From Gammaproteobacteria bacterium (GTDB lineage: Bacteria > Pseudomonadota > Gammaproteobacteria > 21-64-14): a stretch of 64,000 nt of DNA. The DNA is taken from positions 22,983-86,982 of the forward strand of contig JALUXX010000016.1 in the NCBI GenBank assembly GCA_027013145.1. The letters run 5' to 3'. Each line of letters opens with the position of its first letter. The first letter of the stretch is position 1. The notes under the pieces were generated by a model. It saw nothing but the letters and a program-made list of their open reading frames with translations, did no database searches and was not told where the DNA came from. Of this stretch, positions 32,253-60,572 are shown piece by piece. A program made the position numbers and the translations under genes.

Positions 32253-33664
32253 GCCGTGTCCCGGACGAAGCCGATGCGCTCCTGAGCGAACTCGCCGCCT
32301 ACGCCTGCGACTACGAGCCGCGCGATGCGGAGGCGTTCGCCACCGCGCGCGAGTGCCTGTTCGACAGCCTCGCCTGCGCGCTGCTCGCCGGCGCCGATCC
32401 CGACTGCCGGCGCGTGCTCGCCGCGCCGGCCGAGGGGTTCGAGGTGCGCGATGGTCTCCGGCCCCCGGGGGCTACGCGCGCGCTCGATCCGGTCGCTGCG
32501 GCCTTCGACCTCGGCACCCGCATCCGCTGGCTCGACTTCAATGATACGTGGCTCGCGGCCGAATGGGGCCATCCCTCCGACAACCTCGGCGGGCTCCTCG
32601 CCGCGGCGCTGCTCGCGGCGCGTCGCGGCCCCGCCCCGAGCGTGCGCGACCTGCTCGGCGCGATGATCAAGGCCTACGAGATCCAGGGCGGCCTCGCCCT
32701 CGGCAACGCCCTCAACGAGGCCGGTCTCGATCACGTCGTGTTCGTGCGCGTCGCCACCGCACTCGCGGCGGGCGCGCTGCTCGGCGCCGAGCGCGCGCAA
32801 TTGCTCGCCGCCGCCGCGCACGCCTGGGTCGACGGCGGCCCCTTGCGCGTCTACCGCCACGCGCCGGACGCCGGCCCGCGCAAGGGCTGGGCGGCGGGCG
32901 ACGCGACCGCGCGCGGCTTGTGGCTGGCGCTGCTCGCCCTGCGCGGGGAGCCGGGCTGTCCGCACGCACTGAGCACGCCGGTGTGGGGATTCCGCGACGC
33001 GCTGCTGCGCGGGCGCGAGCCGGTCCTCGCGCGCCCGCTCGGCGAGTACGTCATGCCCAACGTCCTGTTCAAAGTAGCCTTCCCCGCCGAGTTCCACGGC
33101 CAGACCGCCGTCGAGGCGGCGCTGCGCCTGCACCCGCGGGTGCAGGGACGCTGGGAGGCGATCGAGAGCATCCGCATCGAGACCCAGCGCCCGGCGCTGC
33201 GCATCATCCACAAGCCCGGCCCGCTGCGCAATCCGGCCGATCGAGACCATTCCATCGACTACATGGTGGCGGTGGCGTTGCTGCGCGGCGCACTGGAGAG
33301 CGCCGACTACGGCGACGCGGGCGCCGCCGATCCGCGCATCGACGCCCTGCGCGCGCGCATGGAGGTGGTCGAGAACCCGGAGTTCACCCGTGCCTACTAC
33401 GACCCCGCGCGGCGCGCGATCCCCAACGCCATGAGGATCCGCTTCGCCGACGGCACCGCCACCGAGCGCGTCGCGATCGACTACCCGCTCGGCCACCGCC
33501 GCCGCCGCGCCGAGGCGCGCCCGCTGCTGCGGGAGAAATTCCGCTCCGCCGCCGAGCCCGCCCTCGGCCGCGAGCGCTGCACCCGCCTCCTCGCGCTCCT
33601 CGACGACCCGGCCCTCGACACCCTCCCCATCACAACCTTCGCCGACCAATTTCGGGGACAGTGA
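32249..33664 (+). CDS. prpD: 2-Methylcitrate dehydratase (MmgE/PrpD family)
   Basis: MmgE/PrpD family length and pattern. GTG start overlapping the prpC stop. Its last 7 codons lie inside the first copy of a 19-bp tandem repeat. Confidence 0.75.
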   Translation: MSRVPDEADALLSELAAYACDYEPRDAEAFATARECLFDSLACALLAGADPDCRRVLAAPAEGFEVRDGLRPPGATRALDPVAAAFDLGTRIRWLDFNDTWLAAEWGHPSDNLGGLLAAALLAARRGPAPSVRDLLGAMIKAYEIQGGLALGNALNEAGLDHVVFVRVATALAAGALLGAERAQLLAAAAHAWVDGGPLRVYRHAPDAGPRKGWAAGDATARGLWLALLALRGEPGCPHALSTPVWGFRDALLRGREPVLARPLGEYVMPNVLFKVAFPAEFHGQTAVEAALRLHPRVQGRWEAIESIRIETQRPALRIIHKPGPLRNPADRDHSIDYMVAVALLRGALESADYGDAGAADPRIDALRARMEVVENPEFTRAYYDPARRAIPNAMRIRFADGTATERVAIDYPLGHRRRRAEARPLLREKFRSAAEPALGRERCTRLLALLDDPALDTLPITTFADQFRGQ

Positions 33665-33710
33665 GAATTTCGCGACCAATTTCGGGGACAGCGACCAATT
33701 TCGGGGACAG
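33643..33710. repeat. Three copies of the 19-bp unit CGACCAATTTCGGGGACAG: one at 33643-33661 overlapping the prpD stop, then two exactly tandem at 33673-33691 and 33692-33710
   Basis: Read directly. Copies 2 and 3 are perfect and abut. Copy 1 is separated by 11 nt. The last copy runs into the left boundary element. Confidence 0.85.
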
Positions 33711-33841
33711 TGTACTTAATTGTTGGCGATCGTCTGTTGCGCGGTTGCAGCAGTTCGTGGGCCGGGGCCCCGTTGAACGGACGTTGACGCCGGCGCGATC
33801 CTGCGAGCGGACGAGCCTCTCAAATAAGTAAACTGTCCCCG
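33700..33841. repeat. ~142-bp element with inverted-repeat termini (5' TTCGGGGACAGTGTAC ... AGTAAACTGTCCCCG 3'), left copy
   Basis: The termini CGGGGACAG and CTGTCCCCG are reverse complements. A second, ~70% similar copy with identical termini lies at about 60348-60484 in the same orientation. Confidence 0.6.
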
Positions 33842-33954
33842 CATTTCAATACTGAAATTATTTCGGATCCGTACCCGCGCGGGTCTGTGTTCCCGGCTGC
33901 GGCTTCCGTTCAAACTCTCGTAAATTCAAACAGAAAAGTTCTTTATCCCGGAGT

Positions 33955-33970
33955 TGGCACGTTCGTTGCG
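33955..33970 (+). promoter_or_regulatory. Sigma-54 (RpoN) promoter, -24/-12 elements TGGCAC-N5-TTGCG
   Basis: Perfect match to TGGCAC-N5-TTGC(A/T) with correct GG/GC spacing, ~110 nt upstream of the CDS starting at 34078. A sigma-54 activator is encoded 10 kb downstream. Confidence 0.55.
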
Positions 33971-34077
33971 AACGAAACGCGTGCCGGCGGCCGGCGTGGC
34001 CGCGCGGGTCCGGCCGGACAGAGCGGACAGAGCTTAGACGCGGACTAGGGCTTCGACAGCGATTTCGCGAGGAGACG

Positions 34078-35514
34078 ATGATGGAGACTTGTTCCCGAGG
34101 ACACCGAAGGGGCGTTGCCCGACTCGGCCGGGTCGTGCCGCGGGCGAAAGGCGTCGGCGTAGCGCTCGCCGGCGGCCTGCTGCTTCTGGGCGGGGTAGGA
34201 AACGCCGCGGCCCGCTCCTGGGAGTTGAACGGGCCGGCGTGGCACCTCCCGACACCCGCGCATTCGCGCGCGATGGGGGTGCCCGGGCGGGCGCCCGCGA
34301 GTGGGTTCGCCGGAAGCTGGCAGAACGTGGATCGCAATACGCGCGGTCTCACGCGCGTGGATATCGTGCGCGCCGGTGCGGGTTACCGAGTCCGGGCCTG
34401 GGGCCGCTGTCACCCCCGTGACTGCGACTGGGGGAGCGCACCGGCGCAGATCTACGCCCCGTCGCCGTCGGCACGGCGCGACGTGGCGCTCACGGCGCAG
34501 TTCCGCGAGCCGAGCGGAACGATGACCCTGGTGCTCCATAACCGCGGGAGCCGGCTGAGCGCGGAGGTGTTTCGGGCGTTCGATCCGGCGCACGCCTCCG
34601 GGCGCCGCAATTATCTGATGACCGCGCAACTGACCCGTTCGGCCACCCGGCCGAGCGTCGGCATGGGCGGCGCCGCTCCATCGGGGTCCGCGGGTACGAG
34701 GCCACCGGCCGGCGGGCGTCCCGCCGGCGCGCAGGCGCGCTTCCGGGTCATCGTCACCGGTTTCACCGTGAACCAGCAGACCTGGGACGACGCCCTTAAC
34801 CATGACGGAAAAGGAGACGAGGTGTTCCTGCTCACGCACGTGGCCGAGCTGAGCTCATCCGGGAAGGAGGTGCTCGCCTCGGATGTCCGCTCACGCGTGA
34901 TGGGCGATACCAACGGCTGGAAGGGAAGGGTGCACGCGGGGACGGCATGGACGGGTATCTTCGGCGGTCCGCGCGGCGGGCTGGCGACGGGGGATCAGTA
35001 TCCCAGCACGCGCCCCTGGCAGGTGCGGGGACGGGTCTTCGAAGACCGTGCGCCGGAACTCGTGTGGCAGGGAACACTCCGGAGGGGGGACGGCGGCGTG
35101 CTGATCGTACCGACCATCTGGGAATGGGACGAGGCCGGCGGAGATGCGATCGTCCGCGACTGGGCGGCGCTGGTGCAGAAGCTGGACAAGGCCGCGGGGC
35201 CTCTGATCAACGCCGCCAGCGGCGGGGAGGCGAAGCCGTTCGTCGACGCGGCCGGCGCCACATGGGGCGTGCTGCGCAGCAACGAGTTGGCCAGGGTGCT
35301 CGGGCACGCCGCCACCCGTCCCATCGGCCTGCGCGAGGCGGGCAAGGGTCGTCAGGTGTTCCGGCCGACGATCATCCGGCTCAACTACGACATCGCCGAG
35401 CGCCTGCTGCGCAGCAACTTCGGCAAGGGGCCCGGTGTGCTGGAGGTCCAGTATCAGGATTCCTCGCGCCTGCGCGGGGACTACACGCTGTACGTGAAGG
35501 TGCAGCGCATGTGA
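34078..35514 (+). CDS. Hypothetical secreted protein (478 aa)
   Basis: GAGGAG RBS. N-terminal signal-like hydrophobic segment. High GC3. No recognisable domain. Confidence 0.55.
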   Translation: MMETCSRGHRRGVARLGRVVPRAKGVGVALAGGLLLLGGVGNAAARSWELNGPAWHLPTPAHSRAMGVPGRAPASGFAGSWQNVDRNTRGLTRVDIVRAGAGYRVRAWGRCHPRDCDWGSAPAQIYAPSPSARRDVALTAQFREPSGTMTLVLHNRGSRLSAEVFRAFDPAHASGRRNYLMTAQLTRSATRPSVGMGGAAPSGSAGTRPPAGGRPAGAQARFRVIVTGFTVNQQTWDDALNHDGKGDEVFLLTHVAELSSSGKEVLASDVRSRVMGDTNGWKGRVHAGTAWTGIFGGPRGGLATGDQYPSTRPWQVRGRVFEDRAPELVWQGTLRRGDGGVLIVPTIWEWDEAGGDAIVRDWAALVQKLDKAAGPLINAASGGEAKPFVDAAGATWGVLRSNELARVLGHAATRPIGLREAGKGRQVFRPTIIRLNYDIAERLLRSNFGKGPGVLEVQYQDSSRLRGDYTLYVKVQRM

Positions 35515-35595
35515 CGAGGCCGCCGCCGGCGCCCGCACGGGCGCCGGCGGGCCGACGGCCAATGGGCGGACGGGTCGGTACAAGGGGGGAATTAC

Positions 35596-36021
35596 ATGAG
35601 CATCGGACATCGGATACGGGGTTCGGGAGCGGTCGCCAATTCGCTGCGCGCCGCGCTTTTTGGGGTGCTTCTCGGCAGCGCCGGTGCCGCTTCCGCGGCC
35701 CCGGGCGGGATGGTCGGCCTGGTCTACGACTTCGGGCGCAGTGTGGGCGTGACGATCAAGTTGCTTTCGTCCAATCATCGGCACCGGGCCGTGGGCGAGA
35801 TCGGCGTTTCGTACTTTCCGTTCTCGCGGACGGGGCGTTTCGGCCTCGATGTCGGCGGCGGCTACAACCTGACGAAGTCGTCCGTGACCGTCGGCTGGGA
35901 TTTTCTCGGCAGGACGGTGCAGATCGGCGCCGGTTACGTCAACACGGTGGAGGACCATGCGGCCGCGGCGCCACCGCCCGCGCCCCCGCCACCGATCTTC
36001 TCGAAGCCGACGGTGCAATGA
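35596..36021 (+). CDS. Small hypothetical secreted protein (141 aa)
   Basis: Signal peptide (LFGVLLGSAGAASAAPG), beta-rich Gly/Val composition, Pro-rich tail. Confidence 0.45.
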   Translation: MSIGHRIRGSGAVANSLRAALFGVLLGSAGAASAAPGGMVGLVYDFGRSVGVTIKLLSSNHRHRAVGEIGVSYFPFSRTGRFGLDVGGGYNLTKSSVTVGWDFLGRTVQIGAGYVNTVEDHAAAAPPPAPPPPIFSKPTVQ

Positions 36022-36030
36022 GTCGCCGGG

Positions 36031-36696
36031 GTGGTGGTGGCGGCGCGCCAGGGTCGCGGAGACCGGTGGTCCCGGCACGGAGCGGGGGGGGCGCCGCCGG
36101 CGCGCCCGCTCCGGACGGCGGTGCTCGCGTGGGCCCTTTTCGCCATGGGTCCGGCGTCGTGGGCGATGGGCGCAGGGGGGCCGCGGTGGACCATCGGCAG
36201 GGCGCAGATCGTGGGTTCTCCCCGGGAGACGGTGGGGCGCGCCGGGCTCTATCTCGAGTTGAGTCTGCGCAATACCGGTGCGTTGCGGCGCGCTCCGGTC
36301 CGGATATTCGGCCGCTGGAGGCGCGTGAACCCGCATCCCCAGCGAAGGACCGCACGCAATGGTGCGGCACAGGCGTGGCGGGGGACGCCCGGTGCAACGG
36401 CCTGGCGCCCGCGTCCGCCGGCGTCCGGCGGCGGGCGCCGTTGGCTTCCCGGTCCGGGGCCGACGGAAGAGGAACGCCACGCGGAGGAAACCGGGCAGGC
36501 ACGGGGCACGCTGCCGGCGGGAATGCGCCTGTTGGGGCGCTACAGATCGGATCTGAGCCTGGGCTACACGGCAATACTGCGCGTTCCGCTGGCCGCGTTG
36601 GGCCCGGCCCCCGGATCGGCTCCGGTGGTCGACGTCGCGGTGATGACGGGAGTGGTGGTCACCGATCGGCGCTTCGTGGGAGTCGGAATGGAGTGA
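36031..36696 (+). CDS. Possible hypothetical protein (weak call; start undefined)
   Basis: Strong GC3 bias throughout the frame, but no clear start/RBS and odd composition. The overlapping minus-strand ORFs look like shadows. Confidence 0.3.
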   Translation: MVVAARQGRGDRWSRHGAGGAPPARPLRTAVLAWALFAMGPASWAMGAGGPRWTIGRAQIVGSPRETVGRAGLYLELSLRNTGALRRAPVRIFGRWRRVNPHPQRRTARNGAAQAWRGTPGATAWRPRPPASGGGRRWLPGPGPTEEERHAEETGQARGTLPAGMRLLGRYRSDLSLGYTAILRVPLAALGPAPGSAPVVDVAVMTGVVVTDRRFVGVGME

Positions 36697-36766
36697 GGTG
36701 CGCGGGAGAGGCGCTTCGGGAGACGGTCAACGCGGTTCTGTCATGAGTCTGACAGTGGAGGCGGAT

Positions 36767-37495
36767 ATGTCTTTTCACAGGGTCTGTATCGTCTGGCGGG
36801 GGGCGGTTGCGGCCGTCATGGTGTTCGGCATGGCCGGTTGCGCGACCGCGAGCCGACCGACGGTCGACAACTCGTACACCAGTCACGAACTGGCAAGCCT
36901 GCCGCCGCTGCGGGCGCGGCCGAAGACGGTGACCATCTATCGGTTCACCACCAGTGTCGACGAGGTGTCGGCGCGGGCGGCCACCGACATGTTCACGACG
37001 GCGCTGATCAAGTCTCACCGGTTCGCCGTACTCGAGCGACAGCGGCTCAGTGAGGGTGTGTTGCGCGAGAAACAGATGAACTCCCAGGGCATGACCACCG
37101 GAAACGTCGGTCGCGCCACCCTGGCCGGCGCCGACTACATCTTTTACGGGACGGTCAGCGAAGCCAACGCGGATGCGTCGGATACGGGCGTGGGCGCGAC
37201 TCTCCGCGGGCTCGGTGTGGAGGGCAGCGGGCAGAAGGCGGTGATCGCGGTCGATGTGCGGGTCGTCGATGCGCATACCGGCGCCGTTCTCGACGCGGTC
37301 GACGTGCGCCGCCCGGTGACGCAGGGTGGTGTCGGCGTATCCGGGGTCGGGGCGTTCGTCCAGAGCTTCACGCACACCGATCTCCAGGGGGCCGACGTCT
37401 CGCTCCACAAGGCGCACAAGGAGGGTGTGGACCGCGCGCTGCGCGAGTGCATCGAAGAGGCCGTCTATCAGCTCGCGAGGCGGTTCTCCAATTGA
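36767..37495 (+). CDS. CsgG-family outer-membrane lipoprotein (curli-type secretion channel family)
   Basis: GGAGG RBS. Lipobox (VFGMAGC). CsgG-like segments (TIYRFTTSVDEV, FTTALIKSHRFAVLERQRL, ADYIFYGTVSE, AVIAVDVRVVDAHTGAVL). Confidence 0.65.
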   Translation: MSFHRVCIVWRGAVAAVMVFGMAGCATASRPTVDNSYTSHELASLPPLRARPKTVTIYRFTTSVDEVSARAATDMFTTALIKSHRFAVLERQRLSEGVLREKQMNSQGMTTGNVGRATLAGADYIFYGTVSEANADASDTGVGATLRGLGVEGSGQKAVIAVDVRVVDAHTGAVLDAVDVRRPVTQGGVGVSGVGAFVQSFTHTDLQGADVSLHKAHKEGVDRALRECIEEAVYQLARRFSN

Positions 37496-37500
37496 TCGCC

Positions 37501-38685
37501 ATGAACGTCCGATGGGGTCTTTGGGTCGGCCTGCTGGTCTGCGCCCCGCTCGCGGCGAATACGGTCCGGGCCGGCGGTTGGCGGGTGACGGAGCTGCGTC
37601 TCAATACGCCGACGATGGAGGGCCAGTGGTACGCGTCGGATTCCCCCCTGGCGCGGGGTCTCGGGATCCGGGCGGGTTATATGGCGTTGTATACGATCGA
37701 GGTGTTGCCGGGTCTCCAATATACCCTGCAGCTGCGTGTGCCGCGCGCAGCGGAGCGGGTCCGGGTGTACGCCTACGATCGCTGGCCGCTGTCGGCCGGA
37801 GCACGCCGGTTCGCGTTGCCGAGCGGACCGGTCACCTGGCCGCCGCGTGCACGACGGATCTCGTACCGCTGGCGGATCGGGATCTCCCCGCGGAGCACCG
37901 GGACACTGTTGTACCTCATGGTGTGGTTTCCGCGCCCCTGGCCGTCGGGTCCGGTGACGGCCCCGGTCCTGCTCGTGCGTTCGCCGCCCATCGTTCCGAC
38001 CCACCGCATCGGACGCGGCATAACCTATCTGGACGGCCCGCGCGATCTGCTGCTCTCCGGCGAGTCCGGTGCGGTCTCCTATACGCTGCTGCCGGCCGCG
38101 CCGGCCGTGCCGGTCCGGTCCGCCCGGGTGTGGACGGCCCCGCGCGATCTGGTCATCAATGGGCGTTTCAGCGCGGGTCTGCGAGGCTGGGTGCCGCGGA
38201 CCGGCGCCGACGGTCGCGGCCTGGAGCCGACCATTGGATCGCAGGGACTGCGTCTTGCGCCGGGCACCGGAGTGCGCTCGCAACTCGATGCGGACGTCGC
38301 CCGTGCACGGACGCTGGTTCTTTGGGCCGACGTGCGTCTCGGGCGGGCGACGAGCGGCGATGGCGGGCGGACGACCGGTGACCCCGGACTGACGATCGCG
38401 CTGTGCTTGCGCGACGAGGCGGGAAGACGCCACTGCGGTCGACATTCGGATCGGATCGAGTTCTTCAGGCAGGGCAAGGGAAACGCGGCGACGGCCGTCG
38501 CCGCGGGCCGTATCCGGCGCCTGATCCCGGCGGGAACCTGGTACCGGTTCCAGATCGATCTCGCCGGCGGTCCGTCGCATCCCGCGCACATCGACTCGAT
38601 CGATCTGTCGGCGGGTACGGCCGGGACGGCGTGGGTGCGCGAGGTGCATCTCATACGAGGGGGGACGAGTGATGCGGGTGATTGA
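37501..38685 (+). CDS. Hypothetical secreted protein (394 aa)
   Basis: Signal peptide (MNVRWGLWVGLLVCAPLAANTVRA). No recognisable domain. Confidence 0.5.
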   Translation: MNVRWGLWVGLLVCAPLAANTVRAGGWRVTELRLNTPTMEGQWYASDSPLARGLGIRAGYMALYTIEVLPGLQYTLQLRVPRAAERVRVYAYDRWPLSAGARRFALPSGPVTWPPRARRISYRWRIGISPRSTGTLLYLMVWFPRPWPSGPVTAPVLLVRSPPIVPTHRIGRGITYLDGPRDLLLSGESGAVSYTLLPAAPAVPVRSARVWTAPRDLVINGRFSAGLRGWVPRTGADGRGLEPTIGSQGLRLAPGTGVRSQLDADVARARTLVLWADVRLGRATSGDGGRTTGDPGLTIALCLRDEAGRRHCGRHSDRIEFFRQGKGNAATAVAAGRIRRLIPAGTWYRFQIDLAGGPSHPAHIDSIDLSAGTAGTAWVREVHLIRGGTSDAGD

Positions 38686-39730
38686 AACCTGGAGCACTGC
38701 GGTTCTCGTGCTGGTGTTGGCGGTGGCCGCGGACCCGTTGTGTGCGGGCCCGCTCGATCGCGGCCCGATGGCGCCGCGCGTCAATCCGGCGACCAATGAC
38801 ATGCTGCGTGTGCCCGGCGTGGTCGGTATGGACCGGCAGGGTGCGCTCGCGACGCTCGAGCAGGCCGGCCTGAACCCGCGGATCCACGAGCTGCGCAAGG
38901 TCACGAAACGCTATGCCGGCCGCGAGGGTACGGTGGTGCGCCAGTTACCGCTTCCGGGCGGTATGGCGATGTTGGGGTCCTCGGTGAGCATCACAGTGTA
39001 TGACCCCGGCGGCAGTGAGGGCGGCGTTGGTGCGGGCGGCCCCCCCGCTCAGCCGCCGTCTTATCCCGACAACGGCGGGCCCGGCTACGATGGCTCCGAC
39101 TACGGCGGTTACGACACCGGCGGGGCGCCGCCGTACGGGTCCGGGTCCGGCGGCGTCGATAGCGGTGGCGCCGGCGATGCGGGAGCGGTTGGTGGTGGAG
39201 ACGCGGGACCGCCGTTGCCGGGTGGATGGAGCGGTCCGAGCGCGCCGGCGGCCGGGGCCGGTGAAGGTCCCGCCCCCGCAGACGCGGGCGGGGCACCGGC
39301 CCCTGGACCCGCCACCGGCAACCTCCCGCTGAAGGCCCCCGCACCGTTGCCGGTACCCTCATCCCCGCCGTCGCAACCCCTCCCGGCCGGTCCGCTTCCG
39401 GTGCCCAAGCCGGTCGCGGTGCCGTCGACGCCCGCGCCCGCGTTGCACGCGCCGATCCCCGAGCCGAAGGCGCCGGTGGGCGGAACCGGCGCACGCCCGA
39501 AGCCTTCCCTGCGGCCGCCGCCGGAGCGCCGGTTGCCGCCTCCGCGACCGCAGCCCCCGGCGCCGGTCGTGACGCCCGCGCCGGTTCCGGTATCGCCGCA
39601 TATTCCGAAGCCCGTTGTGCCGATCCCGCCGGACGGGTCCGGCACGGGTGCTGCGCCGGTTCCACGGCCGGCCTTGCCGAGACGGAAAGAACCCCGCCGC
39701 CTGTCGGCCCCGCCCGAAGGCGTTCCGTAG
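38672..39730 (+). CDS. Secreted protein with one PASTA-like domain and a ~230-aa Pro/Gly/Ala-rich tail
   Basis: Signal peptide. PASTA-like module (VPGVVGMDRQGALATLEQAGLNPRIHELRK...GTVVRQLPLPGGMAMLGSSVSITV) followed by low-complexity PxxP-type repeats. Confidence 0.5.
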   Translation: MRVIETWSTAVLVLVLAVAADPLCAGPLDRGPMAPRVNPATNDMLRVPGVVGMDRQGALATLEQAGLNPRIHELRKVTKRYAGREGTVVRQLPLPGGMAMLGSSVSITVYDPGGSEGGVGAGGPPAQPPSYPDNGGPGYDGSDYGGYDTGGAPPYGSGSGGVDSGGAGDAGAVGGGDAGPPLPGGWSGPSAPAAGAGEGPAPADAGGAPAPGPATGNLPLKAPAPLPVPSSPPSQPLPAGPLPVPKPVAVPSTPAPALHAPIPEPKAPVGGTGARPKPSLRPPPERRLPPPRPQPPAPVVTPAPVPVSPHIPKPVVPIPPDGSGTGAAPVPRPALPRRKEPRRLSAPPEGVP

Positions 39731-39784
39731 CCGGGCGGCGTGGGTATCCACGGGGTCGTAGACAACTGCAAAGAGGGGATCGTC

Positions 39785-44092: not shown

Positions 44093-44136
44093 AATGATGC
44101 GCCGCTTGCGGTTCCGCAACGCGCGCATGGCCGCGC

Positions 44137-52939: not shown

Positions 52940-52962
52940 GGAAATGAATAGGAGGAACCAGG

Positions 52963-53412
52963 ATGAGAACCGTCCCGATGACCGTCGCCGCCCTCTGGCT
53001 GTTCGCCGTGGTCGTGCCGTCCGCCGCCAATGCCGCAGCACCCAGGCTCAAGCCCGGCCTGTGGGAGACTACCGCCACCAGCGTCATGGTCGGCACACCC
53101 TTCTCGCCGCCGCCGCAGACCGGCAAGACTTGCCTGACCGAGAAGCAGATCGCCCACCCCTGGGCCGCGCTCCAGGCCAACAAGAACCAGCACTGTAGGT
53201 TCACCCACGTGGAGGTCCACGCGCATTCGGCGAGCTGGCGCATGGAGTGCGACGGGCAGGGCGGGCACATGATCGGAACGGGCACCAGCAAGTACCCCGA
53301 TCCGACGCACATGCAGGGGATGACCCATATGACCGTGAACGCCGGCGGCGAGCAGATGAAGATCGACGTCACCACCGTCGGGCACTGGGTCCGCGCCTCC
53401 TGCCCGAAGTGA
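52963..53412 (+). CDS. Small secreted protein, DUF3617-like (149 aa)
   Basis: AGGAGG RBS. Signal peptide. KPGLWETTAT motif. Four Cys residues. Confidence 0.5.
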   Translation: MRTVPMTVAALWLFAVVVPSAANAAAPRLKPGLWETTATSVMVGTPFSPPPQTGKTCLTEKQIAHPWAALQANKNQHCRFTHVEVHAHSASWRMECDGQGGHMIGTGTSKYPDPTHMQGMTHMTVNAGGEQMKIDVTTVGHWVRASCPK

Positions 53413-53451
53413 CCCGAGGCAGCGTGTCACCAGGCCCACCGGAGCGAATCG

Positions 53452-56184
53452 ATGCCGCCCTCGCCCCGCCTGCACCGGTACTGCACCCTGCTCGTGGCGC
53501 TGTCGACGCTGCCGGCCCCGGCGGGGTCGGTGCAGGCCGATCCCGGCCCGAACTCTCCGTTCGCCGGCATGAGCCAGCGCCGGATGTGGTGCCAGGTACT
53601 CCAACAGGGCATCAGCAGTCCCGCGCGCCAGGCGCATGCGCGCGAGGAGTGTTTCGGCAAGCTGGCGCGCTTCGACAAGGTCGAGACCTGGCAGGGGCGC
53701 CTGACGCTCACCCGGCACTACATCTGCGCCGACCAAAGCGGGACCAAGACCGTGCGTGCGCGCTTTGCCCTCAAGCGCACGCCCTACCTCAGCAACGCCG
53801 AGGTCGCGGGCTCGATCAAGGCCCAGGTCCCTAAAGCGGCGAACGTCTTTCAACAGGCCATGGCGCGCATGCCCGGCGCGAAAGTCGTCATCCGGCGAGA
53901 CCCGACGACCGGCTACACGGAGGGCCCCAACGAGCTGAGCTGGTTCCTGACCGCCGGCACGCTGGACGCGTCCATCGGCACCCGCGGCAGCGACGGCGAC
54001 ACCGCGCACAGCGAAAACGGCAGCGGTTCGGCGGCCATCTCACGCCAGGCGCGCTTGATCTTCGACCTCGAGCAGGGCACCTGGAGCCTGGAGCTGCCGC
54101 CGCTGGACGAGAAGGGCTTTCCGGTCACCAGGGTCACGAGCTCGCCCGAGGGCAGCACGACCGAACACGACCGCGAATCGATGGACGACGTCAGCTCGCT
54201 CGACGGCTATACCGACGATCGGGGCCTGAACAAGTTGCCAGGCACCGGCCTGCAACTGGTCGGACATGTCACGACGCAGGAGGGCGACTGCGAGCGCGAC
54301 GAACTGAGCTGGCGCCTCGCGCCGGCGGCCGACTGCGCCTCGTACAAATACCTGACGCTCGGGATAGAAGACCCCGTTGCCGGCACCCGATGGATCTTCG
54401 ACAGCCATGACGCGCCCGCCGGGCTCGGTCCCGTCAGACTCGACGGGGGCGCTGAATACGCCCAGGACAAGGCGGTCGTGAACATAGACGACATGGTGCA
54501 ATGGACGCCGCCCCGAATCCCCGGTACCACGCTCCACGCAAAGCCCGTCGACCTCTTCGGCGCCTCGCTCACCCTTTCGTATAGCGGCATGCCGGCCACC
54601 AACAGCGACTTCGGCAAGGCCGTTGTGCGATTAGAGATTCCCGACCTGCCGAACTGCGTTGCACCGGAGAGCCGGACCGTGCGACTGTTCTTCGCACGTG
54701 ACGGGCACGGCAATCCCGAGGGCAAGCGCGAGCCGAACTGGTTCTACTACTGGATGCAGAGCAAGGCGGGGGCCGGTCATACCGAAAAAGATGTGGTCTT
54801 CGAGACGGGTTGCGACCCGACAAAACTCGGCTATTTCTACATGCACTATCCCTTCTCCGCGCGCGTGCATATCTGTTCGGCCGCAAAGGGTGTGACAGCC
54901 TCGAGGGACGTCTACGGAGAAGTGGCCTTTGGAATCGATCAGTTCGCTTTGACCATTCGCCACGAGTTCGTGCACAAGATGCTCTACGACGAGGGCCTGC
55001 GGGCCTTCGATGCGTCGTGGTACCACAAGTACGGATTCTCATATTTCAAGCGCGAGGATTATCTTGCCGCGAAGGCCAAGCTCGATCCCGATCGCGACTA
55101 CCTCACCTCCGCCGAAGAACGCAAATACGGCCTCTCTCCCTGGATAAAGGATACACACTGCACCGGCCAGGACGACAACGAATACCTCGCTTACAAGCTC
55201 TCGACCAAACACTGGAAGCTCGGTTCCGCGGATCGACAGGATTGGTCCTGCCCGGGGCGTCAGGGACGCGCCCCCGAGAACGGCCAACCCGACGGGGACT
55301 GCGCCCTGGTGCCTCCCTCGCCCGGCGGGGGCCACTGGCCCGGGTGCGCGGCGCCTCGTGTACGAACGGGATCGCGGAGGTCGAACCCGCGGGAAGCCTC
55401 ACCGGGTGATGAATTGCATTCGGTGCGCGGGGTGGGGATGGCGGACGCCGTGCCCGCGCCGAGCCCGCGTACCACGGACGTGCCAGGGGCGTCTTCCAAG
55501 GCCAATCACACCGGGAACGCCACCGCCCCGGCCGCGGGCGGTGCCGCGGGCATTGCGACGCGATTGAAGAGCCCCGATCCGATGACCCGCTTGCGGGCCT
55601 TGCGCGACTTGGTGACCGCCGGCGGTGGGCCGGCGCCCGGCACGTCAGCGAAACAGGTCCTGGGTGCGCTGGCCTCGGAAGTGAACGGTCCGCCCGCGCC
55701 TCAGCCCATCCGCAACGGCTACCTGCCGCAGGGGGCCTGGCGCCGTGTGCAATACGCACGGCTCAGTGCCCGCTTACCCGAGAAGGCGCTGAGCGTGCTC
55801 TATCGCAGGCATCTCGAGGCCGGCGGCCCGACGAAGAGCTGGCTCGCCATCACGCTGGGCGATGCCGGCGACGCGCGCCTTACGGGTGAGCTGATCGCGC
55901 TGGTGCATGAGGCGCCCGACTGGCCGACCCGCTGGGCCGCGGCCGAGGCTCTGGGTGCCATCGGTTCCCCGGTCGCGGTGCGTGCGCTGGAGGACGTGAT
56001 GCAACATGATGCCGCGACTACGACGATGCAGTCGGACGCAGCCGCTCCGGTCACGTTTTACCCCGTGCGTGAGCAGGCTGCGGGTGCGCTCTTGCGCCTG
56101 GGTATCGGGGTTCACCTCGTCGGACCGGATACCTACGTCGTCGACACGGCCGCGCCGGACCCGCAATCGTCGGTTGTACGTTGA
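53452..56184 (+). CDS. Large secreted protein (910 aa) with an HExxH zinc-metallopeptidase-like motif and C-terminal HEAT/PBS-lyase-type repeats
   Basis: Signal peptide (LLVALSTLPAPAGSVQA). HEFVH at IRHEFVHKMLYDEG. C-terminal HEAT-like repeats (LGDAGDARLTGELIALVHEAPDWPTRWAAAEALGAIGSPVAVRALEDVM). Confidence 0.6.
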   Translation: MPPSPRLHRYCTLLVALSTLPAPAGSVQADPGPNSPFAGMSQRRMWCQVLQQGISSPARQAHAREECFGKLARFDKVETWQGRLTLTRHYICADQSGTKTVRARFALKRTPYLSNAEVAGSIKAQVPKAANVFQQAMARMPGAKVVIRRDPTTGYTEGPNELSWFLTAGTLDASIGTRGSDGDTAHSENGSGSAAISRQARLIFDLEQGTWSLELPPLDEKGFPVTRVTSSPEGSTTEHDRESMDDVSSLDGYTDDRGLNKLPGTGLQLVGHVTTQEGDCERDELSWRLAPAADCASYKYLTLGIEDPVAGTRWIFDSHDAPAGLGPVRLDGGAEYAQDKAVVNIDDMVQWTPPRIPGTTLHAKPVDLFGASLTLSYSGMPATNSDFGKAVVRLEIPDLPNCVAPESRTVRLFFARDGHGNPEGKREPNWFYYWMQSKAGAGHTEKDVVFETGCDPTKLGYFYMHYPFSARVHICSAAKGVTASRDVYGEVAFGIDQFALTIRHEFVHKMLYDEGLRAFDASWYHKYGFSYFKREDYLAAKAKLDPDRDYLTSAEERKYGLSPWIKDTHCTGQDDNEYLAYKLSTKHWKLGSADRQDWSCPGRQGRAPENGQPDGDCALVPPSPGGGHWPGCAAPRVRTGSRRSNPREASPGDELHSVRGVGMADAVPAPSPRTTDVPGASSKANHTGNATAPAAGGAAGIATRLKSPDPMTRLRALRDLVTAGGGPAPGTSAKQVLGALASEVNGPPAPQPIRNGYLPQGAWRRVQYARLSARLPEKALSVLYRRHLEAGGPTKSWLAITLGDAGDARLTGELIALVHEAPDWPTRWAAAEALGAIGSPVAVRALEDVMQHDAATTTMQSDAAAPVTFYPVREQAAGALLRLGIGVHLVGPDTYVVDTAAPDPQSSVVR

Positions 56185-57042
56185 CGATGCGGCCTGGTCC
56201 GATGCATCCGCCCGCCGCTCAGCGGGCCCGCCGTCGGGGGCGGTTGGGATGGCGGGCGGGCCACGCGTTTGTACCGGACGCGCGGCGACTTCGGGAAGGA
56301 GACCTTATCGGAGCGGGCGTCGCGTAAGGGCATGGGGCGCTGCGCTCGGCTGAGAAGGGCGAAATACATCAGAACGCCATTCAAACGAACGTAACGCAAT
56401 ATTGAACCCCGCTCTTGCGATGCTGTGACGGATGGCCCGGTTTGAGCCCGCCGGTGCATTCACCGTCCGCGGCACGATGGCGCAATTGATGTCGTAGTCG
56501 ACCGCACCCGTATGTCACGTCGTCGTCGCGTCCGTCGCCGCGGCCCGGTCATTGCGGTACGCCGATCGAGGCGCGGCAACGGGTCGTCGCGGCTGGCGGT
56601 GCCGTCCCGCCACCGACTGAGAGATTGCAGGCCACGTAGCGCCCGCGGCGGCGCGCATGCATTTCAAAACCGAAATTGTTACGGATCCGCATGCAGGCCG
56701 AATCGGATGCGAACCGCTCGGGCCTGCATACCCCATTGTAATACCGCTATGTTTTCTCAGCGCCCGCGTTTGGCATGGAGATTGCCGTATCCGGCGCAAG
56801 GCGAGGGGCGTCGTGTCCCGAGAAGGACGCGGAACATCGAGCTTGAGGTTGGACTTGCCGCCCGCACGGCCAGCTCGCGCGGGTCTCCGGAAGGATGCCG
56901 GAGGCGTCCACCGGAGAGGTCCGCGTGTATCGCCCCGGAGGCCGGCCGCGGCCCGGAGTCACGGTGCTGAACGGGTCACAAAATCGACCACGTCGCCATC
57001 ACGGATTTTGCATTGTATGTCTTTTCTCGGGAGAAATGACCA

Positions 57043-59523
57043 GTGAACGTTGAAGACCGATCCGCACTTCCGCTTATGCCGATGCTTTTACTGTTCGCCT
57101 TGCTGGCGCTGCCGTCGATGGTCCAGGCTGCCGTCGGCCAATACTGGGAGTGGGAGAATCCGATCCCGCAGGGCAACACGCTGAATGCGGTTGCATGGAA
57201 CGGCAGTAATCTCTACGTGGCCGTCGGGGATCGCGGCACGGTGATGACCAGTCCCGATGCGGTTTCCTGGATGGCCTCCAACGTCGGAAACACGAATCGT
57301 CTCACGGCGGCGGCATGGGGGAACGGGAGATTCGTGGCCGCGGATGATATGGGCGGGATAGTTACCAGCCCGGACGGCGGGAATTGGACGCCCCGTACGT
57401 CGAACTCGAACTACTATGGGATCTCCGGTTTGGTGTGGAATGGAAGCGAATTCGTCGCGGTAGGCGGCGGTGGCGTCATCCTGACCAGTCCGGACGGAAT
57501 CACATGGACATCGATAGTCCCGGGGGCGGGTTCGGCGCACAACCTCAGCGCGGTTGGCTGGAACGGCATGCAGTTCGTCGCGGTAGGTCAGGCGGGTACC
57601 GTACGCACCAGCCCGGACGGCATCCACTGGACGACGCGGACCTCCGGCACGACGGCCGATCTCGCCGGTGTGGTCTGGGCCGGCGCGAAATGGGTGGCCG
57701 TAGGCGGAAACACGGTTCTGACCAGCGCCGACGGCATTACGTGGACAGCCCAGACCGGAGTCACGTCCAATTTTCTGTTGGCCGTGGGCTGCAAGAGCAG
57801 CGAATTGGTTGCGCTGGGCGGAAACGTCACCCTGACCAGCGCCGACGGCGTGAGCTGGACGCAACACAACAACGTCACCTATAGGTTGAACGCGCTCTTG
57901 TGGAACGGCAGCGAATTCGTCGCCGTCGGAGACGGCGGAAAGATCGCTGTCAGCACCGATGGCTCCGTATGGACGTCTCGGACGCAGAACGTGCTGGACG
58001 TGCCGGGGCGGTACGAACCCTCTGTCGGTGGCATCGGATGGTTCGCGGTCAAGGGCGAGTTCGTCGCCGTTACCAACCAGGGGTTGGTGTTGAGGAGCCG
58101 TGACGGATTGCATTGGTCGGTCACGGATACCGGGATCGGCAACAACCTCAGTGCCCTTGACTGTACGAGCACCGAGTGCGTGGCCGTCGGTGCCGGCGGT
58201 CACATCGCAACCAGCCTGGATGCCGCGACCTGGACGCCGCAGACTTCGGGTACGAGCAACACGCTTTATGATGTCGCCTGGGACGCGAAAAACGCTCAGT
58301 TCGTGGCCGTGGGGGCCAACGGGACGATTCTCACCAGCGCGGACGGTGCCGCCTGGGTAGCGCAGAGTTCCGGCACGACGCAGAATCTATTCGGCGTTCA
58401 TGCGGGAGGCGGCGGCATCGTGGCCGTGGGTGGGAACGGAACCATCCTCACCAGCGCGGACGGGACCGTATGGAACGCACGAACCTCCGGCGCCACGTCA
58501 CGTTTGAGTGCGATCACCTTTGGCGGCGGAAAGTACGTCGCGGTCACCCAGCTTACGGGTAAGGCGCTCATCAGTGCCGATGGGGTGACGTGGACGCCGT
58601 ACTCGCTTCCCTCGTTCGCCATCCTGGATACCGTGATATGGGACGGGAAGTATTTCTTCGCAGGAGGACCGCAGTCGCCGGTATTCGTCAGTTCGGACGG
58701 AATGAACTGGACCTCGTACGATACGGGCGCGGACCCCGCGCCGCTGGCGATAGCGACGAACGGAAACGCCAACGCGTCCATCGCTGTCATGGGCGGTTTC
58801 AGCGGCTCGATTCTGGCCTCTGTCCAGCCGGCGCCCACCGGATTGCAGGCCGTGACGGTGACGCAACCGGGTCCGGGTTCGGAAACGTTCAACATTCAGG
58901 GCATGAGTTCGTTGACGGTCGCCGCAAGTTCCGGCAACCAAACGCTGTTGCCGGACGCCGGCATTGCGGGCGCATCGACTTGCAGATCGGCCGGAAGCTG
59001 CACGCTTACATTGCATCCCGCGGCCGGGCGGACCGGCACCGCAGCGGTGACCGTGACCGTTACCGATGGCCATGGACAAAGCGGAAAAGGCACCTTCCAG
59101 GTAACGGTCGGGCCACCGCCGCCACCGAGCGCGAGCGGCTTTTCCAATATCACGATCGCGCAACCGAACGGCGGCAGCGAAAAGTTTGCGGTGACGGGAT
59201 CCGGTACGCTGACAGTAACGGTGCATTCTGGCAACCAGGGACTGTTGCCCGATGCCAATATTGGCGGCGCAGCGAGCTGCACGTCGGCCGGGAACTGCGT
59301 GCTGACGCTGCAGCCGGTTGCACAACAGGCCGGGACCGCCGCGGTGGGTGTGACGGTGAGTGACGCCTACGGGCAGAGTTCAGGCGGCACCTTCACGGTG
59401 TCGGTCAAGGCGGCGCCGTCTGCGGCCGGCGGTGGCGGCGGTGGCCTCGGGCCGTGGATGCTCTTGGGCCTGCTGGGGCTCCTGCCGTGGCGGCTGCGCC
59501 GCCGCGTGTCCCGGCGTGTCTGA
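57043..59523 (+). CDS. Secreted protein with 12 BNR/Asp-box repeats (two beta-propeller-like units), two Ig-like domains and a GlyGly-CTERM-like C-terminal sorting signal (826 aa)
   Basis: Signal peptide. Twelve S-x-D-G-x-x-W-T repeats (TSPDGGNWT, TSADGITWT, SSDGMNWT and similar), each with a (W/F)xGxxFVAVG strand. Two ~100-aa beta-sandwich-like repeats (VTVTDGHGQSGKGTFQVTV / VGVTVSDAYGQSSGGTFTVSV). C-terminus GGGGGGLGPWMLLGLLGLLPWRLRRRVSRRV: Gly-run, TM helix, Arg cluster. Confidence 0.65.
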   Translation: MNVEDRSALPLMPMLLLFALLALPSMVQAAVGQYWEWENPIPQGNTLNAVAWNGSNLYVAVGDRGTVMTSPDAVSWMASNVGNTNRLTAAAWGNGRFVAADDMGGIVTSPDGGNWTPRTSNSNYYGISGLVWNGSEFVAVGGGGVILTSPDGITWTSIVPGAGSAHNLSAVGWNGMQFVAVGQAGTVRTSPDGIHWTTRTSGTTADLAGVVWAGAKWVAVGGNTVLTSADGITWTAQTGVTSNFLLAVGCKSSELVALGGNVTLTSADGVSWTQHNNVTYRLNALLWNGSEFVAVGDGGKIAVSTDGSVWTSRTQNVLDVPGRYEPSVGGIGWFAVKGEFVAVTNQGLVLRSRDGLHWSVTDTGIGNNLSALDCTSTECVAVGAGGHIATSLDAATWTPQTSGTSNTLYDVAWDAKNAQFVAVGANGTILTSADGAAWVAQSSGTTQNLFGVHAGGGGIVAVGGNGTILTSADGTVWNARTSGATSRLSAITFGGGKYVAVTQLTGKALISADGVTWTPYSLPSFAILDTVIWDGKYFFAGGPQSPVFVSSDGMNWTSYDTGADPAPLAIATNGNANASIAVMGGFSGSILASVQPAPTGLQAVTVTQPGPGSETFNIQGMSSLTVAASSGNQTLLPDAGIAGASTCRSAGSCTLTLHPAAGRTGTAAVTVTVTDGHGQSGKGTFQVTVGPPPPPSASGFSNITIAQPNGGSEKFAVTGSGTLTVTVHSGNQGLLPDANIGGAASCTSAGNCVLTLQPVAQQAGTAAVGVTVSDAYGQSSGGTFTVSVKAAPSAAGGGGGGLGPWMLLGLLGLLPWRLRRRVSRRV

Positions 59524-59801
59524 CAGGTGAAGGGTACTCGCCGCGGTGCGCATTCCGACATGAGCGGGTACGCGCACGCCCGGAGGGCCACACCATGAAT
59601 GCCAGGGCTGGCGACCTGCTCTTCTGGTGCGACGTGCTCGGCAGTTACACCGACGCGGGCTACATGGGTACCCGGCATGCGGAGGCCTCGGTGACGCCGT
59701 TCCCACATGGCTCCTGATGCGGATGGGTTTCACGGAAATCCAAAGGGGCGGGCGGATGCGACTGCATCCGGGAATTCGCCAAGAAAACCGGAGGGAAGGA
59801 G

Positions 59802-60272
59802 ATGCATAAATGCTATCTGTCGGTCCTATTCGCCCTGCCGCTCCTGCTGCCCGGCCTGGCCGGTGCGCGCAGCGCTGGCGGGCCCGACTGGGGCGGCGTT
59901 CTGCGCCAGCCGTCGCGCCCGCGATTACCAAGGCCGGGGCATCATGGGCCGTGCCATCTCGACGGCACCGTGTGGGCCAGCGGCTCGGCCCGCAACCGGA
60001 ATACCGACCATCTCCACCTCACGCTGAAGCATCGCTGGAACGGAGGGCTGACGCGGGTCTACGGCGTTCGCAACCAGTACAGGCCGGAGGAATACGCAGT
60101 GGTCGTTTATCAGACCAATAGGAACTTGGTGCACATCCTGCGCTACTACGCGCCGCAGAGGCGTATCACCGACGATAGCGGGAGCCTGTCCGCCGATTGC
60201 CGGCACATGAGACTCTCGGGCGTCACAAGTGACGGCGCGTTTGGTGGCGGTAGACTCTATCGGGAACGGTAG
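59802..60272 (+). CDS. Small secreted hypothetical protein (156 aa)
   Basis: GAAGGAG RBS. Signal peptide (LSVLFALPLLLPGLAGA). GC3 bias. Confidence 0.4.
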   Translation: MHKCYLSVLFALPLLLPGLAGARSAGGPDWGGVLRQPSRPRLPRPGHHGPCHLDGTVWASGSARNRNTDHLHLTLKHRWNGGLTRVYGVRNQYRPEEYAVVVYQTNRNLVHILRYYAPQRRITDDSGSLSADCRHMRLSGVTSDGAFGGGRLYRER

Positions 60273-60347
60273 GCTGCGGCGCCGGCGAAGACGAATGCGA
60301 CGTGTCCAGGACCACAGACGCTCAAGAGGTCCTCCATGACCGTTGAA

Positions 60348-60484
60348 TTCGGGGACAGTGTACCAATTTGGCCCTTGCCCGTTGTGCGGTTACGGTACCC
60401 CGTGGACCGCCGCTCTATCGGTGACCACTGGTGTCCGCGCGTCCCGCGACTGGATGGTGACCTGAAATTAGTAAACTGTCCCCG
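60348..60484. repeat. ~137-bp element with inverted-repeat termini (TTCGGGGACAGTGTAC ... AGTAAACTGTCCCCG), right copy, ending 11 nt from the tRNA-Arg 3' end
   Basis: Same termini and orientation as the element at 33700-33841. Internal similarity, for example GTTGTGCGGTTACGGTAC against GTTGCGCGGTTGCAGCAG. Confidence 0.6.
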
Positions 60485-60495
60485 AAAAGGGGGGG

Positions 60496-60572
60496 TGGCG
60501 CCCCGGCCAGGATTTGAACCTGGGACCTTCCCCTTAGGAGGGGGATGCTCTATCCAGCTGAGCTACCGGGGC
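60496..60572 (-). tRNA. tRNA-Arg (anticodon CCU), 77 nt, with genomically encoded CCA
   Basis: Minus-strand sequence GCCCCGGTAGCTCAGCTGGATAGAGCATCCCCCTCCTAAGGGGAAGGTCCCAGGTTCAAATCCTGGCCGGGGCGCCA. It has a 7-bp acceptor stem, D stem GCTC/GAGC, anticodon stem TCCCC/GGGGA with loop CTCCTAA (anticodon CCT), T stem CCAGG/CCTGG and GGTTCAAATCC T-loop. Confidence 0.9.

What the first reader, a model, noticed from the sequence alone, without database searches (positions are those of the whole stretch)
33643..60572. A ~26.7-kb accessory segment bracketed by two direct copies of a ~140-bp element with inverted-repeat ends, the right copy 11 nt from tRNA-Arg(CCU); no integrase anywhere
Two boundary elements, at about 33700-33841 and 60348-60484 in the same orientation, share the structure 5'-TTCGGGGACAGTGTAC ... 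~110 nt ... AGTAAACTGTCCCCG-3'. The two ends are reverse complements of each other (CGGGGACAG / CTGTCCCCG), and the interiors are ~70% similar.

The right copy stops 11 nt from the 3' end of a tRNA-Arg gene, a classic island integration hotspot. The left copy abuts the end of the prp operon and is preceded by three 19-bp tandem repeats.

Everything between them is a coherent block of about 22 genes, nearly all signal-peptide proteins of unknown function plus two large regulators and sigma-54 promoters. The prpD side and the tetR side outside the elements look like ordinary core genes.

There is no integrase, transposase, recombinase or phage gene inside or next to the segment, and GC content does not differ from the flanks.

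The elements could be decayed att sites of an old tRNA-associated island, MITE-like mobile repeats that mediated the insertion, or structured regulatory/insulator elements. Any of these would be an unusual way to delimit a regulon-sized cassette.
Basis: seen in the sequence. Interest (0 to 1): 0.75.

Follow-up and report, generated by a model that had tools for sequence, protein, structure and literature searches.

The report
Palindromic repeats of a tyrosine transposase
The two ~145-bp "boundary elements" are copies of a known kind of small palindromic repeat that tyrosine (HUH) transposases are thought to spread, not the ends of a tRNA-integrated island; a sister strain shows they sit where genes have been gained, lost or swapped.

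Summary
Two same-orientation ~145-bp elements (33697-33846 and 60345-60489) share 25-nt inverted arms, AATTyCGGGGACAGTGTAC... / ...AGTAAACTGTCCCCG. The right one ends 11 nt from tRNA-Arg(CCU). No recombinase gene lies in or beside the segment.

The arm core GGGGACAG fits GGGGWSAS, the published consensus of the inverted repeats that flank TIRYT genes (TIR-associated tyrosine transposases, TnpA-Y1 subclass 2.1). Twelve of these loci (each 8 kb or less) show a Y1-transposase match; five genes scanned against Pfam all matched PF01797.

So these are REPIN-like, non-autonomous repeats, not att sites or transposon-derived MITEs. The 26.7 kb is not one insertion. A sister strain (95-98% identical) has the same prpD...block...tRNA-Arg order. 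It carries katG between two such elements where the window has one. It also has 2.1 kb of different genes in place of the window's tRNA-proximal 14 kb, which has the lowest GC in the window. Three of the four breakpoints fall on clear arms and the fourth on a degenerate arm-like sequence.

Verdict: a new member of a known kind, of moderate interest. The elements mark recombination joints, and the tandem half-arm arrays point to a cleavage point after GGGGACAG.

The parts
33697..33846 (+). Left palindromic element (REPIN-like inverted-repeat doublet). Left arm 33697-33721, interior, right arm 33822-33846.
   Evidence: It folds into one long hairpin: RNA -69.4 kcal/mol (z -4.05), DNA -38.9 kcal/mol (z -5.03).
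33643..33691 (+). Two extra tandem half-arms, CGACCAATTTCGGGGACAG at 33643-33661 and 33673-33691, each ending exactly at GGGGACAG. The first overlaps the last codons of prpD.
   Evidence: Homology to the sister strain's prpD contig stops at 33662, directly after the first GGGGACAG.
60345..60489 (+). Right palindromic element. Left arm 60345-60369, right arm about 60464-60488.
   Evidence: Hairpin -62.4 (+ strand) and -66.8 (- strand) kcal/mol, z -4.9 and -6.7. Sister-strain homology resumes at 60465, in the right arm.
60496..60572 (-). tRNA-Arg(CCU). Its 3' end is 11 nt from the right element.
   Evidence: The same arrangement is present in the sister strain.
32249..33664 (+). prpD (2-methylcitrate dehydratase). 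Its C-terminal ~7 residues are encoded by a half-arm.
33847..46455 (+). Left part of the block, conserved between strains: a 478-aa secreted protein, CsgG-like lipoprotein, PASTA and Yip1 proteins, a 1079-aa BTAD/AAA regulator and a sigma-54 activator.
   Evidence: 97-98% identical in the sister strain. A similar module occurs in a distant relative in another context. Pfam results.
46432..46457 (-). Degenerate arm-like sequence. The minus strand reads CTTCGGGGCAGACC in the window and TGTCGGGACAGTCC in the sister. It lies at the left edge of the strain-variable segment. This evidence is weak.
46456..60344 (+). Strain-variable, lower-GC segment of 13 genes, including OmpA-like, DUF3617, HEAT-repeat and cadherin-like proteins. 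The sister strain has 2.1 kb (3 genes) in its place.
   Evidence: GC 0.646.

Best explanation
Each ~145-bp element is a non-autonomous palindromic repeat: two inverted 25-nt arms (consensus AATTyCGGGGACAGTkTACTTAATT) around a loosely conserved interior. It belongs to the family of inverted repeats that flank TIRYT genes, and it is REPIN-like in architecture. TIRYTs are HUH/Y1 tyrosine transposases, TnpA-Y1 subclass 2.1, also called RAYT group 1.

Inferred mechanism: as single-stranded DNA the element folds into a long hairpin. A TIRYT encoded elsewhere in the genome recognises the arms and nicks and rejoins next to GGGGACAG, which copies the element into intergenic sites.

The arms are conserved and dispersed, and possibly cleaved. 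This makes them break-and-join points for recombination. That is why, between two sister strains, the katG indel and the 14-kb versus 2.1-kb replacement beside tRNA-Arg begin or end in these arms.

The 26.7 kb between the two copies is not one mobile unit. It is a conserved sigma-54-regulated envelope-protein module plus a strain-variable, tRNA-proximal cassette.

Shown: the sequence, arms and hairpin; the family-wide link to Y1 transposase genes; the sister-strain breakpoints. Inferred: mobilisation in trans, the cleavage point, and a causal role in recombination.
For: 1. The arm core GGGGACAG fits GGGGWSAS, the consensus reported for repeats flanking TIRYT genes, which are described as occurring in dimers or clusters (Di Nocera 2013, PMC3733652; Quentin 2018, PMC6006769).

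In 67% of hits, at least 7 of the next 10 inner bases are also complementary. The 25-nt arm consensus is shared across phyla.

3. tblastn with three of these transposases finds a match in 12 of the 117 loci, each 8 kb or less (11 with one query; the twelfth, L089, is weak at E 0.003). The five genes scanned all match Pfam PF01797. The four scanned against NCBIfam match NF047646 at 58-74 bits, below its cutoff of 80. The two full-length proteins I checked by eye (L060, L053) carry the NHVH and YV..NP motifs of subclass 2.1, and the other translations look the same. In L060 repeat clusters flank the gene on both sides.

4. Hairpin z-scores are -4 to -6.7. All five lineage copies align over their full length.

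5. The sister strain (Logan SRR13206476) reads prpD - element - katG - element - block - 2.1 kb - element - tRNA-Arg. Breakpoints fall at 33662, about 33821, about 46455 and 60465, all in or at arms.

6. Tandem half-arm arrays are frequent in the family. In 36 of 74 cases the non-terminal copy diverges immediately after GGGGACAG. The window and the sister strain show the same pattern.
Against: The transposases score below the curated REP-transposase cutoff.

No one has shown biochemically that TIRYTs move these repeats. Quentin 2018 found no REP-like structures next to subclass 2.1 genes, and Bertels 2017 found only about 12 flanking-16mer copies per replicon for group 1.

The breakpoint evidence rests on one strain pair assembled from metagenomes. 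The katG gene is split over two contigs, and one of the four boundaries is only a degenerate arm.

Element interiors at the same site differ far more between strains (54-71% identity) than the flanks do (95-98%). A simple deletion model does not explain this.
Confidence: 0.78

Rival explanations
1. The elements are decayed attL/attR sites of an old island that a tyrosine integrase inserted at tRNA-Arg.
For: The right copy is 11 nt from the tRNA 3' end. The tRNA-proximal 14 kb is strain-variable and lower in GC.
Against: There is no integrase or remnant of one. No direct repeat of the tRNA 3' end longer than chance (15 nt or less) exists anywhere in the window. The elements are palindromes found in many phyla beside Y1 transposases. 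The sister strain has three such elements, including two around katG. The element beside the tRNA is present in both strains.
Confidence: 0.03
2. The elements are classical MITEs, deletion derivatives of a DDE-transposase insertion sequence that is mobilised through its terminal inverted repeats.
For: They have terminal inverted repeats, are small and lie between genes.
Against: Neither copy has a target-site duplication, by direct reading. No longer arm-bounded unit carrying a DDE transposase was noticed in the 117 loci, though only Y1 genes were searched for. Tandem half-arm arrays that end at a fixed base are not a MITE feature.
Confidence: 0.05
3. The elements are primarily host regulatory hairpins, such as terminators, mRNA stabilisers or insulators at operon ends. 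Their position at strain breakpoints is coincidental, because both repeats and indels favour intergenic DNA.
For: Both copies lie just downstream of a gene end: prpD for the left copy, the 156-aa gene and tRNA-Arg for the right. They form very stable hairpins on either strand. REP elements are known to affect termination and mRNA stability (PMC3733652 abstract).
Against: There is no Rfam match even at E<=1. Arm sequence is conserved across phyla while interiors are free to vary, which points to protein recognition rather than RNA structure. The covariation term of the consensus fold is unfavourable. Four of four breakpoints at arms is hard to explain by an intergenic preference alone. A secondary role as a terminator is not excluded.
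Confidence: 0.12

Closest known systems
TIR repeat families and 'TIRtrons' associated with TIRYT tyrosine transposases (Di Nocera et al. 2013, PMC3733652); TnpA-Y1 subclass 2.1 (Quentin et al. 2018, PMC6006769); RAYT group 1 (Bertels et al. 2017, PMC5581495)
   Same: The arm core GGGGACAG fits the published GGGGWSAS motif. The repeats occur as dimers and clusters. In other genomes the same arms lie next to Y1 transposase genes; the two full-length proteins I checked by eye (L060, L053) have NHVH and Y..NP motifs. The distribution across phyla is wide and patchy.
   Different: No cognate transposase was seen in the sequence available from this genome. The ~145-nt unit has a recognisably homologous interior, so it looks like a unit that replicates as a whole. 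The tandem half-arm arrays that end at GGGGACAG, and the coincidence with strain-variable cassettes, were not mentioned in the parts of those papers I read.
REPINs mobilised by RAYTs (Bertels & Rainey 2011, PMC3116915)
   Same: Two inverted short repeats around a spacer form a hairpin of about 100-150 nt. The element is non-autonomous and intergenic, and is linked to a single-copy-type Y1 transposase.
   Different: The arms lack the GT[AG]G tag and are not themselves palindromic. The associated transposases are group 1 / subclass 2.1, not groups 2 or 3. Copy number is probably much lower.
IS200/IS605 family (IS608, ISDra2)
   Same: An HUH/Y1 enzyme acts on single-stranded hairpin DNA. Cleavage is expected at a fixed short sequence beside the hairpin, and there is no target duplication.
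   Different: There is no transposase inside the unit and no asymmetric left and right subterminal hairpins. The cleavage site here is only inferred.
tRNA-linked genomic islands
   Same: A variable, lower-GC gene set lies immediately downstream of a tRNA 3' end.
   Different: There is no integrase and no att repeat derived from the tRNA. The boundary is a palindromic repeat present in both strains.

Membership tests
TIRYT-associated TIR repeats (TIRtron system) | The inverted-repeat arm contains the GGGGWSAS motif. | tested here: met
   GGGGACAG is present in all four arms and in the half-arms. The consensus comes from PMC3733652 and PMC6006769.
TIRYT-associated TIR repeats (TIRtron system) | The same repeats flank a TIRYT (Y1, NHVH / Y..NP) gene. 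| tested here: inconclusive
   Met in other genomes: 12 of 117 loci have a Y1-transposase tblastn match, five scanned genes match PF01797, and in L060 the repeats flank the gene on both sides. Not seen in the roughly 80 kb available from the source genome. The whole genome could not be scanned.
TIRYT-associated TIR repeats (TIRtron system) | The repeats occur as dispersed singles, dimers or clusters within a genome. | tested here: met
   There are two dimers plus half-arms in the window, and three dimers in the sister strain. Several genomes have 2-5 separate loci even in the truncated scan.
Canonical REP/REPIN-RAYT | A 5' GT[AG]G tetranucleotide at the foot of a self-palindromic REP. | tested here: not met
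   The arms AATTyCGGGGACAGTGTAC carry no GT[AG]G tag and are not self-complementary.
Canonical REP/REPIN-RAYT | Two inverted repeats plus a spacer fold as one hairpin. | tested here: met
tRNA-integrated genomic island | An integrase gene adjacent to the tRNA or inside the island. | tested here: not met
   The Pfam scans of all block ORFs found none.
tRNA-integrated genomic island | A direct repeat of the tRNA 3' end at the distal boundary. | tested here: not met
   Only chance matches of 15 nt or less, and none near 33.6-34 kb.
DDE-type MITE | A target-site duplication flanking the inverted repeats, and a parent insertion sequence with the same repeats. | tested here: not met
   The flanks are CAGCGACC and CAATACTG for the left element, and GACCGTTG and GGGGGGTG for the right, with no duplication. 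No parent insertion sequence was noticed in the 117 loci; only Y1 genes were searched for, and those were the transposase genes found beside the arms.
Integron attC | R''/R' core sites (RYYYAAC / GTTRRRY) and a nearby IntI. | tested here: not met
   The arms have no such cores, and no integrase is present.
Described structured RNA (Rfam) | A match to a covariance model. | tested here: not met
   Only the tRNA matched at gathering threshold. Nothing matched at E<=1 in 33550-34100.

The most novel reading that the evidence does not exclude
The GGGGACAG arms may be true site-specific recombination sites of TIRYT enzymes, cut after GGGGACAG. DNA lying between arms, from 19-nt stutters to multi-kb gene cassettes such as katG or the 14-kb surface-protein set, could then be excised, inserted or exchanged at arms. 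That would make TIRYT repeats a chromosomal cassette-exchange system driven by an HUH enzyme. It would also give a function to the largest and most widespread RAYT group, which has none assigned.
Probability: 0.15. Interest if true: 0.8.

Novelty: new member of a known kind. Interest (0 to 1): 0.4.

Why it matters
It removes a false lead: this is not an integrase-less island with exotic boundaries.

It also adds concrete data on a poorly understood system. No function has been established for TIRYT / group 1 RAYT transposases, the most widely distributed RAYT group.

This locus gives three things:
- a 25-nt arm consensus shared across phyla;
- a candidate cleavage point (GGGGACAG^), inferred from the tandem half-arm arrays;
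- a natural strain pair in which a katG indel and a 14-kb cassette replacement end in these arms.

Together these make it directly testable whether such repeats structure the flexible genome.

Tried and rejected
- Searching the literature for the 9-mers GGGGACAGT and ACTGTCCCC returned only unrelated primer hits. Neither repeat paper contains the literal strings.
- The metagenome scan with the lineage-specific arms found a single unrelated 5-kb contig. The source contig is evidently not in that collection, so the scan gave no copy-number estimate.
- The exact look-up of PrpD (P0001) failed. The closest PrpD relative (72% identity) sits on a contig that ends 150 bp after the gene.
- The search for a near-identical KatG in the window strain found nothing above 67% identity over the full query. 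Whether katG was lost or moved therefore stays open.
- The scan of viral contigs found 0 hits.
- Rfam gave nothing.
- Proximity to tRNA genes is not a family trait.
- The idea of an att repeat derived from the tRNA was rejected.
- I first read the sister contig as a rearrangement joining katG, instead of prpD, to the block. The second sister contig corrected this: prpD - element - katG, so it is an indel and not a translocation.
- I considered mobilisation of the whole 26.7 kb as one giant Y1-transposase unit. I rejected it because the sister-strain breakpoints do not match that unit, and single-strand transposition of 27 kb is implausible.
Full report
**Observation**

- The left element spans 33697-33846 and the right element 60345-60489. 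They are in the same orientation.
- Each is bounded by inverted 25-nt arms. The left arms read AATTTCGGGGACAGTGTACTTAATT and GAATTCGGGGACAGTGTACCAATTT. The right arms read AAATAAGTAAACTGTCCCCGCATTT and GAAATTAGTAAACTGTCCCCGAAA.
- TTCGGGGACAG occurs six times against 1.35 expected, and no shuffle contains the 25-mer.
- GGGGACAG occurs nowhere else in the window, nor in 15.7 kb of extra flank from the same contig.
- tRNA-Arg(CCT) lies at 60496-60572 on the minus strand, 11 nt from the right element.
- Two additional 19-nt half-arms (CGACCAATTTCGGGGACAG) precede the left element. The first encodes the last residues of PrpD, whose C-terminus departs from its homologues at that point.
- Both elements fold into one long hairpin on either strand, with z-scores of -4 to -6.7.
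- The roughly 21 genes between the elements mostly encode proteins with signal-peptide-like N-termini. There are also a BTAD/AAA regulator and a sigma-54 activator, and no recombinase of any kind.

The right half of the segment is 4 points lower in GC than the flanks. Only one clear sigma-54 promoter was found.

**What the elements are**

I scanned one genome per bacterial and archaeal species for CGGGGACAGT-N100-130-ACTGTCCCCG. I estimate about 17 hits by chance. The loci come from Gamma- and Alphaproteobacteria, Acidobacteriota, Planctomycetota, Gaiellales and other groups.

Most hits are genuine palindromic elements. In 67% of them, at least 7 of the next 10 inner bases are also complementary. 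The class to which the window's arms belong has a 25-nt consensus shared across phyla, AATTCCGGGGACAGTWTACTTAATT. A second class has the palindromic arm GGGGACAGTCCCC.

Reading locus L060 showed a gene for an IS200-like tyrosine transposase with clusters of these repeats on both sides. tblastn with three such proteins finds a match in 12 of the 117 loci, each 8 kb or less (11 with one query; the twelfth is weak). None was found in the window. For scale, Quentin et al. report the relevant subclass in 15% of strains at about 2 copies each. A random 8-kb stretch would then contain one well under 1% of the time.

The five genes scanned match Pfam Y1_Tnp. The four scanned against NCBIfam match the REP-associated tyrosine transposase model below its cutoff (58-74 bits against 80). 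The two full-length proteins I checked by eye (L060, L053) carry the NHVH and YV..NP motifs. These are the signatures of TnpA-Y1 subclass 2.1.

Quentin et al. equate that subclass with the TIRYTs of Di Nocera et al. TIRYT genes are flanked by inverted repeats that share GGGGWSAS, and those repeats form moderately abundant families organised in dimers or clusters. GGGGACAG fits that consensus exactly.

The elements are therefore TIRYT-type inverted-repeat doublets. They are REPIN-like in architecture, but they lack the GT[AG]G tag of canonical REPs.

Other kinds of element are excluded:
- There is no Rfam family.
- There is no target-site duplication and no DDE parent element.
- There are no attC cores.
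- There are no viral copies.

**Is the 26.7 kb an island?**

There is no integrase and no copy of the tRNA 3' end at the distal boundary. The family is not tRNA-associated.

The decisive evidence is a sister strain from Logan run SRR13206476.

- Contig _26363 (18.1 kb; loci L123 and L131) reads: katG N-terminus - element - block - element - tRNA-Arg - 311-aa gene - TetR.
- It is 97-98% identical to window 33821-46455 and 94.9% identical to 60465-63209.
- Between those stretches it carries 2.1 kb with three genes. Two of them are distant homologues of window 51306-53412 (52% and 43% amino-acid identity). The window has 14 kb there.
- Contig _296045 (L132) reads: prpC - prpD - element - terminator - katG C-terminus. 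It is 97.9% identical to the window up to 33662, the base after the first GGGGACAG.

Both strains therefore have prpD...block...tRNA-Arg. They differ in two segments:
- V1 is about 160 bp in the window and about 3 kb with katG, between two elements, in the sister strain.
- V2 is 14 kb in the window, with the lowest GC in the window, and 2.1 kb in the sister strain.

Three of the four boundaries lie in clear arms, at 33662, about 33821 and 60465. The fourth, at about 46455, lies at a degenerate arm-like sequence present in both strains. That last point is weak.

A module like the left part of the block also exists in a distant relative, without arms and in another genomic context. So the left 12.6 kb is a functional gene cluster, not cargo delimited by the repeats.

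**Mechanism**

The following is shown: the arms, the hairpin, the family-wide association with Y1 transposases, and the arm-coincident polymorphisms.

The following is inferred. A TIRYT encoded elsewhere acts in trans on the folded single strand, as IS200/IS605 and RAYT enzymes do.

A clue to the cleavage point comes from the tandem arrays of outer half-arms, which are common in the family (periods mostly 15-18 and 24 nt). In runs of the window's class, 36 of 74 non-terminal copies diverge from the full arm immediately after GGGGACAG. The same is true of the window's half-arms and the sister strain's, and of the V1 left boundary.

The arms could act as joints in two ways. They could provide short portable homology for RecA-type recombination and for replacement by transferred DNA. 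Or the transposase could break and rejoin DNA there.

One thing stays unexplained. Element interiors at the same site are only 54-71% identical between strains, while the flanks are 95-98% identical. This suggests turnover or conversion among copies rather than simple vertical descent.

**Limits**

- The genome-wide copy number, and whether the source genome has a TIRYT gene, could not be determined.
- The strain comparison rests on one pair of metagenome assemblies.
- katG is split across two contigs.
- No near-identical KatG was found for the window strain, so loss versus relocation is open.

**Verdict**

The elements are a new member of a known kind: TIRYT-associated, REPIN-like repeats. 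The island and att-site reading is rejected. The link to variable DNA holds, but on a different geometry. Interest is moderate. Its main value is as a clean natural example, and a testable cleavage-site hypothesis, for an uncharacterised transposase group.

Noticed in passing
Loci L010, L020, L022, L055, L060, L066 and L099; window 33643-33710; sister strain L131 (reverse strand) 9683-9723: The outer half of the arm, together with 5-10 nt of flank, is often amplified in tandem with periods mostly 15-18 and 24 nt. In 36 of 74 cases in the window's arm class, the repeat junction falls exactly after GGGGACAG. This suggests a fixed nick-and-join point.
   Followed up: partly
Sister-strain loci L132:1969-2130 and L123:1-640, compared with window 33640-33850: The sister strain carries katG (catalase-peroxidase) between two elements. 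The inner arms of those elements are degenerate and the outer arms intact. The window strain has one element with both arms intact and no katG.
   Followed up: partly
Window 33955-33969: A near-perfect sigma-54 promoter (TGGCACGTTCGTTGC) lies 108 nt upstream of the first block gene and is conserved in the sister strain. A sigma-54 activator is encoded in the same block at 44215-46152.
   Followed up: partly
L124:1-11383 (ENA ERZ27257072 k141_278104): A distant relative has a similar module: a 394-aa protein, PASTA, Yip1, a BTAD/AAA regulator, a sigma-54 activator and a 460-aa homologue of the first block gene. The gene order differs, and the module lies next to a cytochrome c / COX1-family (NorB-like) gene pair and type II secretion genes, with no arms. 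This appears to be a conserved envelope-protein gene cluster that I could not match to any described system.
   Followed up: no
Window 2785-17137 and L130:1-9300: The window holds an alpha-carboxysome operon (form I RuBisCO, CsoS2, CsoSCA, shell proteins) followed by a DabAB-type CO2 uptake pair. Respiratory nitrate reductase and NorB genes lie upstream. The host is a high-GC chemolithoautotroph whose PrpD is only 60-72% identical to the nearest database relatives.
   Followed up: no
L068:5495-6229: A TIRYT gene that appears to be interrupted by an insertion, with in-frame stops in the middle of the translation. It may be a repeat inserted into the transposase gene, as reported for another Y1 subclass.
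   Followed up: no
L073:1868-1987 and L075:7773-7892: Nearly the same element, as reverse complements (about 90% identical by eye), occurs in a Thioalkalivibrio MAG and in a MAG labelled Lentisphaeria. This is either binning contamination or recent transfer.
   Followed up: no
Window 60536-60553 (inside tRNA-Arg): Two Logan contigs of run SRR7968105, both 100% identical to the window, end inside the tRNA gene and overlap by 18 nt. This hints at an alternative path there in that metagenome, from another strain or a similar tRNA.
   Followed up: no
L005, L024, L079, L095 and L111: Elements from different marine Gammaproteobacteria MAGs (two of the five loci come from the same MAG) share not only the arms but a largely conserved interior (...TTATCTGTGCATAA...CGACGGACTACTCATCTATCACC...). 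In some lineages, therefore, the interior is also under constraint.
   Followed up: no
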